From positions 77,518-141,517 of the forward strand of contig CALAMI010000008.1 in NCBI GenBank assembly GCA_937925685.1: DNA of 64,000 nucleotides. Reading direction: 5' to 3'. This DNA is from Candidatus Binatia bacterium. Its GTDB lineage: Bacteria > Desulfobacterota > Binatia > HRBIN30. How positions within the stretch are numbered: the stretch's first letter is position 1; the number at the start of each line of letters is the position of its first letter. A program made the position numbers. Positions 1-15,000 of the stretch are shown in pieces.

Positions 1-3000
1 GCAGTGGTGGCACGCAGTTCAGGGGGGCCCGCTTGCCGAGGAATTATTTCCGGGGGCATTTCGACTAGCAGAGTCCCGTGAAGTGAGTGGGATGCCGTCA
101 AGCGGGGCTTAACGGGAGGGTGCGGTGTGGCCACAGCCCCGAGTTGGATGCGGTGGTGCTTGCATTTGGCTTAGTTGCTCGGCAGAGGGTAGTTGTGATC
201 TTGGGTGCCAATGATAGCCGGATGTGATCCCCTGAACGAGGAATCGAATGATTGGAGGACGAGATGGAAAAGTTGTTGCGTGTGAATATGAGCGATTTGA
301 GCTGGCGGGAAGAACCGTTCCCGAATGAGTGGAAGTTCATTGGCGGCCGTGGTCTCTCGGCAAAGATTCTGCTGAAAGAGGTCGATCCCCGCTGCGATCC
401 TTTAGGCCCGGGAAACAAGTTGATCTTTGCGCCGGGTGTTCTCTCGGGCACAATGGCGCCGACGTCTGGCCGGATGAGCGTTGGCGGGAAAAGCCCTCTC
501 ACCGGGGGCATCAAGGAGGCCAACTCTGGGGGCCAAGCTGGGCAAAAACTGGCGCGTTTGGGGTATCGAGCGCTGATTGTGGAAGGGAAGGCAAAAGACC
601 CTACGAAGCGTTACTTAGTCGCCATTGATAAGAATGGGGTTCAGATTCGTGAATGCCCAGAGCTCGCTGGCTTGCGTACTTACGCGGCCTCGGAGAAGCT
701 TGCGGGGATGTTTTCCCCACGGGCTGCTTTTATCCTCTGTGGGCCTGCCGGAGAAAAGGGATTTTCTGGGGCCAGCGTCGCATTTACCGACGAAGGAAAG
801 CGTCATCCGGCACGACACGCTGCCCGGGGGGGACTGGGCGCTGCTATGGGCTCGAAGGGCCTCAAGGCCGTTGTGGTGGATGACGAGGGTACTCAGGCAA
901 GGCAACCGGCGGATGCTGCTGCTTTTAAACAGTACGTGGCAAAACTTACAAAGGACTACAAAGCTGGACCGCAACTCTTTCAGTTCGGCACCTCCGCCAC
1001 TGTTCCCTTGGCGAATATGATGAGTACGTTCCCCACTCGTAACCGTCGGGAAATGCAGTTTGAGCATGCCGATAAGTTAGACGGCGCTCGGATCGTTCAG
1101 AATTTTGCTACCCGCGGTGGTGGGATGCACCACTGTATGACTGGCTGTATCGTTCGTTGTTCGAACATCGTGCACGATGCGAGCGGCCAGTATGTGACTT
1201 CAGCGCTGGAGTTTGAAACCTTAGCGTTGTGTGGTTCCAACTGTTGCATTGGGGACCTTGACCAGGTTGCCCGCATCGACCGTATGTGTGATGAGCTCGG
1301 GCTCGATACGATCGAGACCGGTGGCGCTATTGCCTTGGCGATGGACTGTGGAGCGCTTCCTTGGGGTGATGGCGAGGCCGTGCTCGCGTTGCTCGACAAA
1401 GTGGACAAGGGGGATGAACTTGCCGAAACGATTGCCCGGGGCGTCGTGGCTACCGCCAGGTATTTTGGCGTTACTGACCGAATACCAGCGATCAACGGTC
1501 AGGGCATTCCTGCCTGGGAGCCAAGGACGCTCAACGCCACAGGAATCACTTACGCAACGAGCGCTATGGGCGCCGATCATACCGCAGGTTTGGTTATTGC
1601 GACGTCTGGTGATTTGGCTCGAGCGTCGCAGGAGGCGCAGTTGGTCAATGCTTTGTGCGACTCGAGCGGGTTCTGCCAATTTCAGCAGCCCACGATCGAG
1701 GACATCAGAACTTTGTACAACTTCTTTTTTGGTACCAATCTGACATTCGAAGAGGCTGCGGAGCTTGGCTGGCAGTGCATGGTGGATGAGTGGGAATTTA
1801 ATCGCCGTGCTGGGTTTAAGTGGGAAGAGGCAGATCTGCCCGAATGGTTGCGCAAAGAGCCGGTGCCTTCGAACGGCGCTGTGTTTGCCGTGCCGCGTGA
1901 AGAAATCCAAAGGGTGTTTCAGCGCATGCCGATTTCTGATGAATTGCGCACGCTGAAAGCGGTGGGTTGATTGGTTGAGAAGATTTCAGGACGGAGAGAT
2001 GATGAACGATGGGCTAGTGTGTGGGCGGTGTGGCACTAGCTAAAGGGATATGGTCCCGTTAAAAGCGAAAAGTGGCCTAGAGCTGAGGAGCGATGTATGG
2101 ACCAAGATAATCCAAAGCCGCTACGGCAAGGCTGGATGGGACGTTGGTTCCGCATCGTGGCTGGCTCGACGTTAGTCGGTTTGGGTATTATCGGCTTGTT
2201 CTTGCCGCTTCTACAAGGGGTGTTGTTTATCGTTATCGGTTTGTCCTTGCTGAGCACGGAGAGCGAGCGTGCCCGGCGACTCCATCAATGGGTTCGGTCG
2301 CATTGGCGTGAGCTGCGGACTCATCGTGAAAAAGGGGATTCTGTGCATGGTGTCCGATGAGAAGGATCGCTTAGGCCAGAAGCTTCGCGATGTCGAACGA
2401 GCGAGAGAGGATTTGTACTTTGCGGAGCAAGACCGCAAGCTCATCGAAAAGATGCGGCAAGCAAAGCAGGAAGAAATGGAATCGCACGTTCGCGAGCTGT
2501 CACGAATGCGCTGCCCAAAGTGCGGCGTGCGACTGCAACACGTGATCGAGCGGGGGATTGCTGTTGAGGAATGTCCGCAATGTCGCGGTGTATGGTTAGA
2601 CCGTAACGAACTCGAGGCCATTGCAGGAAGCGAGAAGGAAGGCTGGATTGCCCGTTGGTTAAAGGGGGAGTTTCGCCGGCCTGAGGCTCCGTAAAAGGTC
2701 GGGATCGGCCCTGTGAAGTCAGAAGCAAGCGAGGGAACCGCGATTCGGTTCCCTCGCTTGCTTTAGATGCTTGAGGCGGCCGTTTGGGCCTTCCCTTGGG
2801 GGTGCTGCATTGCCTCTAGCTCCGATGGGAATTTTGTTGTCCAAAAAGGAAGGGCCCCCATGGTGGGAGCCCTTCGATTCATGTTGCACAACGGTGATCG
2901 CAGTTAGTCGGAAATGCTGGTGAGATGCTTGAGGGTAAAGTAATCGCGCGGGAAGTTGGTTTCGATGAACTGTGAACTATATCGCCCCCCGATTGCGGAA

Positions 3001-12000: not shown

Positions 12001-15000
12001 GTATATGCCGGTTCGTCTTTGAAATACGCAGCTTCCGATCGCAGCACACTGTAAATTTCAGGAATGGCGAACGTTGTTGTTGCCCCGAACACCTGCACTC
12101 TGGGCGCTGTTAAGTGCACGTGAACTGGGCTTCCACAGTTGTTTCGACTCGGATCGTTCCCTCGAAAAGGGAAGCGTGGGTCGAGGGGGCAAGGACGTCC
12201 CTCGTCGAAGGCTTGGATCGGAATCCCCCTGACAGTGAACAATTGCGTTGCCGGTAGATCGAAGTAGGTGGAAAGGTACGCTACACTGAACGTCGCATCG
12301 GCCCAGTTGAACACGAATCTAGCGCCGCCACGAGAGTCGGCAAAGTTTCGGCTGGGTGCGAACGTGAAGGTCCGCACTTCCGTGCGCGGTGCCCCGAACG
12401 AGGGCAAACTCCACGGAGAACCGGGAGGAATCGGTGGAATAAAGCCAACTTGATCGTCGATTGCCAAGTACCCTTCGAAAAAGGTGTCGACAAGAGGTCC
12501 GATGGAGCCAACCCGATACTGAGCCCGTAACATGTCGAGGGGCAGCCGACGCTCGTCCAAAGGAATGAGAAAGCCGCCAAAGCTCGAGTCGAGCGGATTG
12601 ATGTGGTCCAGCAGTTGGAAGATGTCCGACTCCCCCCACGAGAGCACCTGCCGGCCAAAACGCACAAAGAATCGGCCGGCGATGCCCTCGACGTAAGCCT
12701 GAAATAGGCGCTCCCGGTGAGAGGCAACGCGGCGGAGATGGCGACGCGCCCCTCCGATGTCCGGTGCTGTTTGGTTGATCGCCGCTAGAGGTAAACGAGT
12801 CAGCACGTCAAGGGACTTGGCGGTGGCATACTCTTGGGGCCCCCAATCGTAAACCCCCTCGTACTCGCCGCGGAACGTTAAATGGTAGCCGACGTTGCGC
12901 AAGCGAAAGGGTAGGTCGCGAAGCAGCGACAAGGGACCCACCCCAACTTCAATGAATCTGTCGATCCGATGGTCGAGTTCTGCCTCCAGAAAAAAACGGT
13001 TCTGCCGTAGGTGACCAGCGGCAGAAAATGGGAAAGTGGCCGAGGTGGAAGGCAAAACTTGGCTGCTCACGCGGTTGGGTATGCCCTGGTGGGTGTTTTC
13101 CGTGCCCAGCCGAGCATTTACGTACGTCCGCACGCCCAATTTTATCGAGCCATCGCGGTCGAGAGCGATCCCCCGTACCTCTGGAGCAGCTGCAATCGTG
13201 AGCAATAACGTGCTCAGTACCAACCACCGGTTACAACACTGTGTCACGACCGACCTCCCGCACCTAAGATCCTCAGGGTACCCGAACCCTGGCTCGCTTA
13301 CGGCCAAGTATCTCCTTTCGTCAAGGGGTAGAGACGATTGTCGCCGGAGCATGCCTTGACATAAGGGAAAGAAAACTTTACTGCAACTAACTAAATATAT
13401 TGACAGTCAAGCACGGCTCGTGGCACAGAAGCTTCGATGTCCTCGCGGGTGCTTTCCGGCGCTGTTCACGGGATCGATGCCCTGCTTGTGGAAGTGGAAG
13501 CGGACTTCCTTCCAGGACTGCCTCGGTTGGACATCGTTGGCCTCGCTGAAGGGCCGGTACGCGAAAGTAAAGAGCGGGTGCGGGCGGCGGTGAAAAACAG
13601 CGGGTTTCGCCTCCCGAGCGCGCGCATCGTGATCAATTTGGCCCCGGCCGATGTGAAAAAGGATGGGTCGGCTTACGACCTGCCCATTGCGCTGGGAATT
13701 CTAGCCAATCAGGAACTGCTACCGAAAGAGCGCCTGCTCAAGTACATGGTTCTCGGGGAACTTTCGTTGGACGGCCGTGTCAAACGCGTCCGCGGGGCCC
13801 TGCCTCTTGCTGCTGCAGCACAACGGTATGGCTTACGTGGGGTGCTGCTACCGGCTGAGAATGCTGCAGAGGCAGCCGTGGTCGATGGGATCGAGGCGAT
13901 CCCGGTGACGAGCTTAGTGGAAGCCGTCGGATTTCTTCTGGGCCATCTCAGCATCGACCCTGTGCGAGTCGACATCGACGGCTTGTTTCGGGAGGCTCAA
14001 ACTCACGACGTTGATTTCAGCGAGGTTCGGGGGCAGCTCCACGTAAAGCGCGCTTTGGAAGTAGCCGCGGCCGGAGGCCACAACGTGCTCATGGTGGGGC
14101 CGCCGGGCTCAGGAAAAACGATGCTGGCGAAGCGAATCCCGACGATTCTTCCACCGTTAACGCTAGCGGAGGCGCTCGAGACCTCGCGGGTTCACAGTGT
14201 GGTCGGTTTCATGGATGGACGGGCGCTCATTACTACGCGGCCATTTCGCTCGCCTCACCACACGATTAGCGATGCGGGCTTAATCGGCGGTGGGTCTATC
14301 CCGAAGCCAGGGGAAGTTAGTCTTGCGCACAATGGCGTGCTGTTTCTCGACGAATTACCGGAATTTCGCAAAAACGTGCTTGAAGTACTACGCCAACCGC
14401 TGGAGGAACAGCGCATTACCATTGCGCGGGCGCTGGCGTCTATTACCTATCCTGCGCGCTGTATGCTGGTCGCGGCCATGAACCCTTGCCCCTGTGGCTT
14501 CTTGGGCGATCCGCAGAAGGATTGTACTTGCTCGCCGCTGCAAATTGAACGTTACCGGTCGCGGATTTCGGGACCTTTACTCGATCGCATTGATATCCAC
14601 ATCGAGGTTCCGCCGGTGCAGTTCCGGGATCTAGCAGGATCACAACCCGCTGAGCCATCGGCTGCGATCCGCTCCCGGGTCGATCGCGCCCGGGTGCGTC
14701 AACTGCAACGGTTTCGCGGCCGCAAGATTTACTGTAACGCGCAAATGGGAAGTCGCGAGTTGGCTCGATTTTGTCGCCTCGACAGCCAGGGCGAGAAACT
14801 GCTCGAAGCGGCCATGGTTCGCTTGGGATTGAGTGCGCGCGCCTACACTCGTGTGCTCAAGGTTGCCAGAACCATTGCCGATCTCGACGGGCAAGATGCC
14901 ATTGACCCCTCTCACATTGCCGAAGCGGTCCAGTACCGCTCGCTCGACCGACCCGTGGGTTGAGAGTGTCCCCCATGGCCTTGGGTCCGGCAGTCCAAAA

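What the first reader, a model, noticed from the sequence alone, without database searches (positions are those of the whole stretch)
2904..13352. DUF1329 / RND(MMPL) / BNR(Ycf48-like) / DUF1302 envelope cluster with a duplicated DUF1302 and an interposed opposite-strand secreted protein
Five minus-strand genes form the conserved but functionally undefined DUF1302-DUF1329-BNR-RND module known from Proteobacteria. Its cargo and role are not established. The DUF1302 outer-membrane component is present twice here (8037..10022 and 11448..13352). The two genes are collinear at protein level and alignable at nucleotide level, e.g. their 3' ends. A 430-aa plus-strand ORF with a signal peptide and no recognisable domain (10113..11405) sits between them, convergent with one paralog and divergent from the other. 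A duplicated barrel component plus a novel secreted protein suggests a variant system, possibly with two alternative outer-membrane channels.
Basis: partly seen in the sequence, partly recalled or inferred. Interest (0 to 1): 0.6.

Follow-up and report, generated by a model that had tools for sequence, protein, structure and literature searches.

The report
Binatia RND transporter with twin barrels
An uncultured Binatia bacterium carries the known but poorly understood four-protein AmeABCD-type envelope transporter, plus a second long-diverged outer-membrane barrel and a lineage-conserved secreted protein sharing its promoter region, which makes it an interesting variant rather than a new kind of system.

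Summary
Pfam places 2904-4217(-) in DUF1329, 4283-6871(-) in RND/MMPL, 6910-7920(-) in the Ycf48-like BNR family, and 8037-10022(-) and 11448-13247(-) in DUF1302. The two barrels share 53% amino-acid identity over their full length. This is the AmeABCD-type tetrapartite RND cassette, here in Candidatus Binatia and with a different gene order.

- **Duplication.** It is old. The B copies form a clade with 100% bootstrap support. They persist in at least 6 further genome loci, and B carries its own copy of the promoter-like element.
- **The 430-aa gene.** It was not inserted between the barrels. It is the ancestral divergent neighbour of DUF1302, adjacent in 20 of 25 Binatia genome loci, most of them single-barrel. 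Its start codon lies inside the TTGACA box of the conserved DUF1302 promoter-like element.
- **What the protein looks like.** It has no Pfam or NCBIfam match, but it belongs to a large unnamed family (1603 cluster representatives). Its confident model has a galactose-mutarotase-like beta-supersandwich fold. Outside Binatia the family is not linked to DUF1302.

The cargo and the role of the fifth protein remain inferred. I rate it a new variant of a known kind, of moderate interest.

The parts
2849..2875 (-). Intrinsic-terminator-like hairpin that ends the operon (12-bp stem, 8 G-C pairs, then CTTTTTGG), 29 nt after the DUF1329 stop codon.
2904..4217 (-). DUF1329, a LolA-like periplasmic protein of 437 aa, and the last gene of the operon. 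It has a signal sequence without a lipobox cysteine.
   Evidence: Pfam DUF1329 1.5e-29 and LolA_like 4e-13. The independent gene call gives 437 aa. Weak PDB sequence match to the LolA-like protein 3bk5.
4283..6871 (-). Inner-membrane RND transporter of 862 aa, MMPL/HAE3-like.
   Evidence: Pfam MMPL 8.7e-24. NCBIfam HAE3 TIGR00921 scores 132.5 bits, below its cut-off of 351.9. Nearest solved sequences are MmpL3 and HpnN at about 1e-7. Hydropathy shows two large loops, residues 45-215 and 497-687.
6910..7920 (-). Ycf48-like BNR beta-propeller. I favour ATG 7920 (336 aa, with a signal sequence). A gene caller chose 7863 (317 aa).
   Evidence: Pfam PSII_BNR 2.1e-46. PDB Ycf48 1.6e-22. NCBIfam Ycf48 equivalog scores 123.9 bits, below its cut-off of 326. 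Gene call.
8037..10022 (-). DUF1302 barrel A, 661 aa, the first gene of the four-gene operon. GGAGG ribosome-binding site and signal sequence.
10094..10119 (-). Conserved promoter-like element of the operon, TTGACATGGGGCCGACGCCTAGCGTA. Its TTGACA box is the reverse complement of the first codons of the 430-aa gene.
10113..11405 (+). The 430-aa secreted protein ('X430'). It has a galactose-mutarotase-like beta-supersandwich fold, belongs to a large unnamed family, and is transcribed divergently from the operon.
11448..13247 (-). DUF1302 barrel B, 599 aa, monocistronic and convergent with the 430-aa gene. Its model is an OprD/Occ/AlgE-like beta-barrel.
13299..13324 (-). Second copy of the promoter-like element, TTGACGAAAGGAGATACTTGGCCGTA, 52 nt upstream of GTG 13247.

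Best explanation
This is an AmeABCD-type tetrapartite RND envelope transporter of an uncultured Candidatus Binatia bacterium. It has two lineage-specific additions.

**Core machine (family assignments shown, mechanism inferred).** A proton-driven MMPL/HAE3-like RND pump sits in the inner membrane. It works with a periplasmic Ycf48-like beta-propeller and a LolA-like DUF1329 carrier. Together they move a hydrophobic or amphiphilic molecule between the inner membrane or periplasm and a DUF1302 outer-membrane barrel of the OprD/Occ/AlgE type. One operon encodes barrel A, BNR, RND and DUF1329, running from the promoter-like element at 10119 to the terminator at 2849.

**Addition 1: a second barrel.** Barrel B arose by an old duplication that took the promoter with it. 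Because the promoter's -35 box overlaps the first codons of the 430-aa gene, the duplicated segment must have reached at least that far. The simplest history is a tandem duplication of [barrel + control region + 430-aa gene] followed by loss of the second 430-aa copy. A and B probably act as alternative surface ports for the same periplasmic machinery. Their large length differences lie in non-strand segments, and strand parity places most of these on the cell-surface side.

**Addition 2: the 430-aa protein.** It is exported and has a carbohydrate-binding-type beta-supersandwich fold. Its start codon is embedded in the operon's -35 box, so the two transcription units share one control region. 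I infer that it is a co-regulated accessory that binds or processes the cargo, or a cell-surface glycan. A sugar-bearing amphiphile is possible but untested.
For: **Families and fold.**

**Operon limits.** GGAGG ribosome-binding sites, the terminator and independent gene calls.

**Function of the four families in cultured bacteria.**
- Deleting ameABCD lowers monoterpene tolerance and raises Nile Red accumulation (PMC6394551).
- The four families are cofit in Shewanella, Kangiella and Pseudomonas (10.1101/072470).
- They are needed for growth on Tween 20 and butyl stearate in P. putida (10.1101/2020.07.04.188060).
- AlphaFold co-folding predicts DUF1302-DUF1329 and DUF1329-BNR-RND complexes (PMC10866462, PMC13499233).

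**Duplication.**
- The B clade has bootstrap 100. A plus B together, set against the deeper single-copy genes, also have 100.
- B is present in L001, L002, L003, L006, L014 and L021.
- Against L001, dN is 0.06 for A and 0.09 for B, with saturated dS.

**The 430-aa gene.**
- It lies divergently next to DUF1302 in 20 of 25 Binatia genome loci and in 9 metagenome loci, while the outer flanks change.
- Its dN/dS is at most about 0.14.

**Promoter-like element.**
- It is present at identical spacing upstream of 22 of 27 DUF1302 genes.
- The whole window holds 4 matches against 1.0 expected by chance.
- The overlapping start codon is in frame with the 430-aa ORF in 14 of 17 loci.

**Fold of the 430-aa protein.**
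- pLDDT 87.7, pTM 0.85.

**Export of the 430-aa family.** A signal sequence, a near-invariant Cys-x3-Cys pair, and a distant homologue that carries a type IX secretion sorting domain.
Against: - Nothing in the data identifies the cargo or the direction of transport.
- Outside Binatia about 85 family members of the 430-aa protein are not next to DUF1302, RND, BNR or DUF1329, and they have no dominant neighbour. Four Binatia loci also have the gene elsewhere: L012 and L016 place it between ClpB and an acetyl-CoA carboxylase, and L005 and L023 have it apart from the module too.
- The whole neighbourhood (ComM, DprA, TopA) is also fairly syntenic in Binatia, so adjacency alone is weak evidence.
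- The -10 part of the promoter-like element (TAGGGA, TAAGCG) is far from TATAAT, and the generic sigma-70 scan did not report it. No transcription data were available.
- I deduced the loop sidedness of the A/B indels from secondary-structure parity, not from coordinates.
- The RND scores below NCBIfam's HAE3 cut-off.
Confidence: 0.55

Rival explanations
1. The 430-aa protein is functionally unrelated to the transporter. It stays next to DUF1302 only because its first codons and the operon's -35 box occupy the same bases, and because the region is syntenic in Binatia.
For: - The broad family is not linked to the module.
- Four Binatia loci have the gene elsewhere.
- It evolves 2.5 to 13 times faster at non-synonymous sites than its neighbours: dN 0.25 against 0.02-0.10.
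- ComM, DprA and TopA are also often nearby.
Against: - Adjacency survives changes on both outer sides. AFOR is present in only 3 loci. ComM is inverted, distant or absent in many. The RND gene is missing from the locus in 3, and DUF1329 is duplicated in 1.
- Where barrel copy B is kept, it sits directly after the gene.
- A shared, overlapping control region normally means coupled expression.
Confidence: 0.3
2. The module imports hydrophobic growth substrates such as esters, alkanes or lipids, rather than exporting or detoxifying them. The two barrels would be entry ports for different substrates.
For: - P. putida needs the DUF1302, DUF1329, BNR and RND genes to grow on Tween 20 and butyl stearate (10.1101/2020.07.04.188060).
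- The Foldy case study proposes substrate transport (PMC10866462).
- Barrel B resembles uptake channels of the Occ and ChiP type.
- In an unrelated lineage a homologue of the 430-aa protein lies between an acyl-CoA ligase, an acyl-CoA dehydrogenase and two FadL/TodX genes.
- Binatota are described as alkane degraders (PMC8262859).
Against: [quoted passage not shown]
- The ameABCD deletion phenotype fits efflux or tolerance (PMC6394551).
- No catabolic genes flank the Binatia locus, apart from an aldehyde:ferredoxin oxidoreductase in 3 loci.
Confidence: 0.25
3. The module exports an endogenous envelope lipid or glycolipid to the outer membrane, a housekeeping biogenesis role analogous to HpnN or MmpL3. 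The 430-aa protein would handle the sugar part of that lipid.
For: - Price et al. proposed export of a cell-wall component, on the basis of pleiotropic phenotypes (10.1101/072470).
- The nearest solved RND sequences are the lipid exporters MmpL3 and HpnN.
- DUF1329 is LolA-like.
- The module sits in a housekeeping neighbourhood and is found across Binatia.
- The 430-aa protein has a fold typical of carbohydrate binding.
Against: - The matches to MmpL3 and HpnN are weak and cover only the C-terminal transmembrane bundle.
- Three Binatia loci lack the RND gene in the cluster.
- No lipid or glycan biosynthesis genes lie next to the locus.
Confidence: 0.25
4. Barrel B is a redundant or decaying duplicate without a role of its own.
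For: Related single-barrel loci (L004, L007, L008, L009, L015) fall inside the A clade. This means B was lost, or moved, in those lineages.
Against: - The ORF is intact, at 599 aa.
- B orthologues are kept down to 56% identity in 6 other genome loci.
- dN is 0.09 with saturated dS against L001, so dN/dS is about 0.04.
- It has its own conserved promoter-like element and ribosome-binding site.
- The barrel model is confident.
Confidence: 0.05

Closest known systems
AmeABCD of Castellaniella defragrans 65Phen, a tetrapartite HAE3-type RND system (PMC6394551)
   Same: It has the same four protein families in one co-oriented cassette: AmeA (DUF1302 outer-membrane protein), AmeB (DUF1329, LolA-like), AmeC (COG4447 BNR/Ycf48-like) and AmeD (RND).
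   Different: - The gene order here is DUF1302-BNR-RND-DUF1329, not A-B-C-D.
- The host is Candidatus Binatia, not a betaproteobacterium.
- The RND is 862 aa against 787 aa for AmeD.
- There is a second, 53%-identical barrel.
- There is a conserved divergent gene for a secreted beta-supersandwich protein.
- The locus is not in a catabolic island.
Pseudomonas putida PP_0765/PP_0766 (DUF1302/DUF1329) with PP_2018/PP_2019 (BNR/RND), and the cofit clusters of Shewanella amazonensis, Kangiella and P. stutzeri (10.1101/072470; 10.1101/2020.07.04.188060; PMC10866462)
   Same: The same four families act as one genetic unit. Predicted complexes are barrel-DUF1329 and DUF1329-BNR-RND.
   Different: - In Pseudomonas the genes are split over two loci and sit next to a LuxR-type regulator.
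- No regulator lies next to the Binatia locus.
- No counterpart of the 430-aa protein is described.
HpnN (hopanoid) and MmpL3 (trehalose monomycolate) RND lipid exporters
   Same: They are the nearest solved RND sequences. Both are RND proteins with two periplasmic loops that handle lipids.
   Different: - Similarity is weak, at about 1e-7 or poorer, and covers the C-terminal bundle only.
- The scores are far below the NCBIfam equivalog cut-offs.
- HpnN is described as working without a dedicated periplasmic or outer-membrane partner (PMC6394551).
OprD/Occ channels, chitoporin ChiP and the alginate porin AlgE
   Different: - Sequence identity is 6-10%.
- DUF1302 is about 200 residues longer and has long extra loops.
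- A very conserved SWGE(T/S)D...INPLD.SFGGFL.PLDERR.PLDML segment is modelled with low confidence.
Galactose-mutarotase-like beta-supersandwich domains: GH38 alpha-mannosidase C-terminal region, aldose-1-epimerases, beta-galactosidase domain 5, OpgG, YidC P1
   Different: - Sequence identity is 5-13%.
- There is no sequence-profile match to any PDB chain or Pfam family.
- I did not check catalytic residues.
- It is a stand-alone secreted protein, not a domain of a glycosidase.

Membership tests
DUF1302 (PF06980) | Match to the family HMM above the gathering score. | tested here: met
   68.6 bits (copy A) and 71.5 bits (copy B) against a cut-off of 23.2. All 120 listed homologues of B carry PF06980.
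DUF1302 (PF06980) | Outer-membrane beta-barrel with an N-terminal signal sequence. | tested here: met
DUF1329 (PF07044) / LolA-like | Match to the family HMM above the gathering score. | tested here: met
   DUF1329 103.9 bits against 23.1, and LolA_like 49.9 against 30.
RND superfamily, MMPL/HAE3 branch | Match to the MMPL Pfam model. | tested here: met
   84.5 bits against 20.5, in two stretches.
RND superfamily, MMPL/HAE3 branch | NCBIfam HAE3 subfamily model TIGR00921 at its curated cut-off. | tested here: not met
   132.5 bits against a cut-off of 351.9. The HpnN and MmpL3 equivalogs score far below their cut-offs. It is HAE3-like, not a member by that criterion.
RND superfamily, MMPL/HAE3 branch | Twelve transmembrane segments, with large periplasmic loops after TMS1 and TMS7. 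| tested here: inconclusive
   A crude hydropathy scan shows two large loops (residues 45-215 and 497-687) and clusters of hydrophobic segments. It also shows two extra hydrophobic segments, 393-411 and 431-449.
Ycf48/HCF136 photosystem II assembly factor | Equivalog-level match (NF010237). | tested here: not met
   123.9 bits against a cut-off of 326. The Pfam PSII_BNR domain match is met at 159 against 27. It is Ycf48-like in fold and family, not a Ycf48 orthologue.
AmeABCD-type tetrapartite RND cassette | DUF1302, DUF1329, COG4447 BNR and RND genes adjacent and co-oriented. | tested here: met
   Four consecutive minus-strand genes, 10022 to 2904, followed by a terminator. The same cassette is present in 17 of the 25 Binatia genome loci. 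The gene order differs from ameABCD.
AmeABCD-type tetrapartite RND cassette | Proton-dependent export of hydrophobic compounds, and physical assembly of the four proteins. | not testable with these tools
   Only literature on other organisms is available (PMC6394551, PMC10866462).
Galactose mutarotase-like fold (for the 430-aa protein) | Beta-supersandwich topology shared with aldose-1-epimerases and glycosidase accessory domains. | tested here: met
Galactose mutarotase-like fold (for the 430-aa protein) | Sequence-family membership, or mutarotase catalytic residues. | tested here: not met
   No Pfam, NCBIfam or PDB-profile match. I did not examine catalytic residues.

The most novel reading that the evidence does not exclude
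Binatia have turned the four-part AmeABCD-type transporter into a five-part system. The secreted beta-supersandwich protein would be a dedicated extracytoplasmic component that binds the sugar moiety of an amphiphilic cargo (a glycolipid, biosurfactant or sugar ester) at one of two interchangeable surface barrels. Its expression would be mechanically coupled to the operon because its start codon lies inside the operon's -35 box.

If so, the family of at least 1600 clusters it belongs to would be a general helper for outer-membrane channels that carry hydrophobic substrates. It sits with DUF1302 here and with FadL/TodX in another lineage.
Probability: 0.2. Interest if true: 0.65.

Novelty: new variant of a known kind. 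Interest (0 to 1): 0.42.

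Why it matters
The DUF1302-DUF1329-BNR-RND module is widespread. It has clear phenotypes in Pseudomonas, Shewanella and Castellaniella, yet it has no solved structure, no known cargo and no agreed direction of transport.

The Binatia version offers three handles:
- **A natural pair of long-diverged barrels.** They differ mainly in non-strand segments, so they can be used to ask which surfaces bind the periplasmic partners and which face the outside.
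- **A lineage-conserved fifth gene.** Its fold hints that the cargo, or its surroundings, contains sugar.
- **An unusual control region.** One gene's start codon sits in the other unit's -35 box.

The work also flags a large, unnamed family of exported proteins that deserves a family model. None of this overturns current understanding.

Tried and rejected
- **Fused domains.** I scanned ten longer family members of the 430-aa protein against Pfam. Nothing useful came back.
- **Common neighbour of the broad family.** I scanned 116 adjacent ORFs against Pfam and clustered the neighbours all against all. There was no dominant partner. Small recurring groups reflect related genomes and have a loose lipid theme: acyl-CoA dehydrogenase 5, FadL/TodX 3, YegS-type lipid kinase 3.
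- **Alignment-based scans of metagenome contigs.** I replaced them with a degenerate DNA pattern for PIPFQ(I/V)DERD.
- **A profile search through the word-indexed protein database.** It reached no further than the single sequence had.
- **The afdb50 fold library.** It was unavailable.
- **A remnant of a second 430-aa gene upstream of barrel B in L003, L006 and L021.** None was convincing. The best hit had E = 0.002 in L006 and lies far from B.
- **Rfam on 1900-13600.** It gave only one sub-threshold hit, on the terminator.
- **The 5' leaders of the DUF1302 genes.** They showed no structure conserved across loci. A hairpin at 10048-10064 is shared only with the closest relatives.
- **The generic sigma-70 scan.** It found nothing in the intergenic regions. 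The conserved element emerged only by comparing loci.
- **dN/dS.** It is of limited use because dS is saturated, at 1.7 or more.

Full report
**1. What is there**

The region holds six genes. On the minus strand, in order of transcription:
- DUF1302 barrel A, 10022-8037.
- A Ycf48-like BNR propeller, about 7920-6910.
- An MMPL/HAE3-like RND protein, 6871-4283.
- A LolA-like DUF1329 protein, 4217-2904, followed by a strong hairpin terminator at 2875-2849.

A plus-strand gene for a 430-aa protein runs from 10113 to 11405. I call this protein X430 below. A second minus-strand DUF1302 gene, barrel B, ends at 11448.

All family calls exceed the Pfam gathering scores. The RND and the BNR protein fall below NCBIfam's HAE3 and Ycf48 cut-offs, so they are relatives rather than orthologues of the characterised proteins.

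Barrels A and B are 53% identical over their full length. They are still alignable as DNA, at 77% over the last 73 nt.

X430 has no Pfam or NCBIfam match.

One correction concerns the start of barrel B, which most probably begins at GTG 13247 (599 aa):
- A GGGAGG ribosome-binding site precedes GTG 13247.
- A 99%-identical database protein is 599 aa long, and its gene call on a near-identical contig confirms that length.
- ATG 13352 lies upstream of the conserved promoter-like element.

**2. Source organism**

Close relatives of all the genes come from metagenome-assembled genomes labelled Candidatus Binatia, or older labels such as 'Deltaproteobacteria bacterium'. The nearest genome locus is 'Bacterium HR30'. 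Against it the RND is 97% identical, but X430 is only 66% identical.

**3. The module is known**

The same four families form the ameABCD cassette of Castellaniella defragrans. Deleting that cassette reduces monoterpene tolerance and increases Nile Red accumulation (PMC6394551).
- They are cofit in Shewanella, Kangiella and Pseudomonas (10.1101/072470).
- They are required for growth of P. putida on Tween 20 and butyl stearate (10.1101/2020.07.04.188060).
- AlphaFold co-folding in two papers predicts a barrel-DUF1329 complex, and one of them also predicts a DUF1329-BNR-RND complex (PMC10866462, PMC13499233).

No structure is solved and no cargo is established. In Binatia the gene order is barrel-BNR-RND-DUF1329 rather than A-B-C-D.

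**4. The duplication**

I built a neighbour-joining tree of 28 DUF1302 genes from the window and 20 Binatia loci.
- The B copies form one clade with bootstrap 100.
- That clade is sister to a clade (bootstrap 75) holding the A copies plus the single-copy genes of five loci.
- Both clades are separated with bootstrap 100 from a deeper set of single-copy genes.

So one old duplication occurred within Binatia, followed by loss or relocation of B in some lineages.

B is retained at the same place in L001, L002, L003, L006, L014 and L021. Several more contigs appear to carry two DUF1302 proteins. I judged that only by equal contig lengths, so it is suggestive at most.

Against L001, dN is 0.06 for A and 0.09 for B, with saturated dS. 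Both copies are therefore under purifying selection.

All length differences of six or more residues between A and B fall in segments that the model does not assign to strands. Short turns alternate with long loops. Assuming periplasmic termini, four of the five indels lie in loops on the cell-surface side and one lies in a periplasmic turn. This last step is inference from secondary-structure parity, not from coordinates.

**5. The 430-aa gene is the ancestral neighbour**

In 20 of 25 Binatia-type genome loci, X430 lies divergently next to DUF1302, and most of those loci have a single barrel. Nine further metagenome loci show the same arrangement.

The outer flanks vary among these loci:
- The aldehyde:ferredoxin oxidoreductase is present in only three loci.
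- ComM is inverted, distant or absent in many.
- The RND gene is absent from the locus in three.
- DUF1329 is tandemly duplicated in one.

There are exceptions. One locus has BNR but no barrel next to X430. In four loci X430 lies apart from the module. In two of those it sits between ClpB and an acetyl-CoA carboxylase.

**6. A shared control region**

Comparing loci revealed a 26-nt element, TTGAC(A)-N17-(C/T)(G/A)TA, on the coding strand of DUF1302. It lies 60-105 nt upstream of the start codon, at identical internal spacing, in 22 of 27 genes: A copies, B copies and single copies. The chance of one match in such a 330-nt region is about 0.005 by my own estimate from the base frequencies the pattern specifies.

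In the whole 64-kb window the pattern occurs four times, against 1.0 expected from shuffles. Two of the four are upstream of A (10119-10094) and B (13324-13299).

The geometry is that of a sigma-70-type promoter with an 18-nt spacer and an atypical -10 (TAGGGA for A, TAAGCG for B). That reading is an inference. The generic scan did not report the element, and I had no transcript data.

The TTGACA box of copy A and of the single copies is the reverse complement of the first codons of X430, (A/T)TG TCA A. That start codon is in frame with the X430 ORF in 14 of 17 loci. This explains why the N-terminus MSS(K/N) is conserved while the rest of the signal sequence is not.

Two consequences follow:
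- X430 and the operon share overlapping control DNA.
- Because B has the complete element, the duplicated segment must have extended into the 5' end of X430.

A tandem duplication of [barrel, control region, X430] followed by loss of the second X430 copy reproduces the present order exactly. I found no remnant of that lost copy.

**7. What the 430-aa protein is**

The AlphaFold model built from 29 homologues is confident, with pLDDT 87.7 and pTM 0.85. After an N-terminal helix, which is the signal sequence, it is all-beta.

Sequence identity is 5-13%, and a family profile finds no PDB chain.

Several observations point to an extracytoplasmic location:
- The signal sequence.
- A near-invariant Cys-x3-Cys pair.
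- A distant homologue with a type IX secretion sorting domain.

A profile search of 1.84 billion cluster representatives finds 1603 relatives, 352 of them at E <= 1e-30. So this is a large family with no Pfam or NCBIfam model. Its motifs are PIPFQ(I/V)DERD, LDxNDELVFMA, NLLDRxKxRA and DGPVRVIRR.

**8. Is the family tied to the transporter in general? No.**

A DNA pattern for the first motif retrieved 96 metagenome loci, almost all of them true family members. Only the Binatia-type ones adjoin DUF1302. The roughly 85 others do not, and they have no dominant neighbour.

A loose lipid theme recurs among their neighbours:
- One lineage has an acyl-CoA ligase, an acyl-CoA dehydrogenase, the homologue and two FadL/TodX genes.
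- Another has four MBOAT acyltransferases, a ketoacyl synthase and a glycerol kinase.
- Others have a YegS-type lipid kinase.

This is weak evidence. It fits a role near the handling of hydrophobic substrates at the envelope, but it does not show one.

**9. Most likely mechanism**

What is shown:
- The identities of the five families.
- The operon structure.
- The age and retention of the duplication.
- The conserved adjacency.
- The conserved overlapping element.
- The folds.

What is inferred:
- The RND pump, the propeller and the LolA-like carrier pass a hydrophobic or amphiphilic molecule to or from a DUF1302 barrel.
- A and B are alternative surface ports served by the same periplasmic parts.
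- X430 is a co-regulated accessory that binds or processes a sugar-bearing cargo or a surface glycan.

The direction of transport and the cargo are open. The rivals are that X430 is an unrelated neighbour, that the module imports rather than exports, that it exports an endogenous envelope lipid, and that B is a decaying copy. They are listed with their tests in the rival explanations.

**10. Verdict**

The finding is a correct description of a real variant of a known but mechanistically unresolved system. Three things are new:
- The duplicated barrel is old and retained.
- X430 is the conserved ancestral partner in Binatia and has a recognisable fold.
- The control-region overlap.

It is not a new kind of system, and the functional link of the fifth gene is unproven. 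Interest is moderate.

Noticed in passing
window 10094-10119 and 13299-13324 (minus strand); also 37689-37714 (+) and 61358-61383 (+): The pattern TTGAC-N17-(C/T)(G/A)TA matches only four times in 64 kb, against 1.0 expected. Two matches lie upstream of the DUF1302 genes. The other two lie just upstream of the ORFs starting at 37725 and 61398 and may be further promoters of the same type.
   Followed up: partly
window 2723-2763: A perfect 18-bp inverted repeat with a 5-nt loop (AAGCAAGCGAGGGAACCG / CGGTTCCCTCGCTTGCTT) lies between the small ORFs at 2211-2694 and the DUF1329 terminator. It is probably a terminator for the neighbouring unit.
   Followed up: no
window 4283-6871, residues 393-411 and 431-449 of the RND protein: A crude hydropathy scan shows two extra hydrophobic segments in the linker between the two RND halves. 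The protein is 75 residues longer than AmeD. It may have 14 rather than 12 membrane segments.
   Followed up: no
L004 1554-4171; L006, L011, L021; L017 9436-9885: Other variants of the Binatia cassette exist. DUF1329 is tandemly duplicated in L004. The RND gene is absent from the cluster in L006, L011 and L021. In L017 no DUF1302 lies between BNR and the 430-aa gene.
   Followed up: partly
L043 2475-8506 (similar in L066 and L080): A distant homologue of the 430-aa protein sits between an AMP-dependent acyl-CoA ligase, an acyl-CoA dehydrogenase and two tandem FadL/TodX outer-membrane genes. This is a second case of the family lying beside duplicated channels for hydrophobic substrates.
   Followed up: partly
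L026 5313-14309 and L027: Homologues about 25% identical lie among four MBOAT_2 acyltransferase genes, a beta-ketoacyl synthase and a glycerol kinase. In L028 (Calditrichaceae) the homologue carries a type IX secretion C-terminal sorting domain.
   Followed up: partly
window 10113-11405 compared with its neighbours: The 430-aa gene evolves much faster than its neighbours. It is 66% identical to its closest relative, against 83-97% for the module genes (86% for barrel B), and its dN is 0.25 against 0.02-0.10. It is still under purifying selection.
   Followed up: yes
barrel B residues 201-236 (window about 12540-12647): The most conserved segment of the DUF1302 proteins, SWGE(T/S)D...INPLD.SFGGFL.PLDERR.PLDML, is the part of the barrel model with the lowest confidence (pLDDT about 50). 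It may be a mobile plug or a partner-binding loop.
   Followed up: no
window 10048-10064: The hairpin ACCGACCCACAGTCGGT lies in the leader of barrel A. It is kept in L001. In L014 the loop differs, and in L002 the stem has changed and the loop is longer. It is not conserved in more distant loci.
   Followed up: partly
L006 about 16177-16629 (minus strand): A weak match to the 430-aa family (24% identity over 177 aa, E = 0.002) lies about 3 kb beyond barrel B. It may be a distant paralogue or chance.
   Followed up: no
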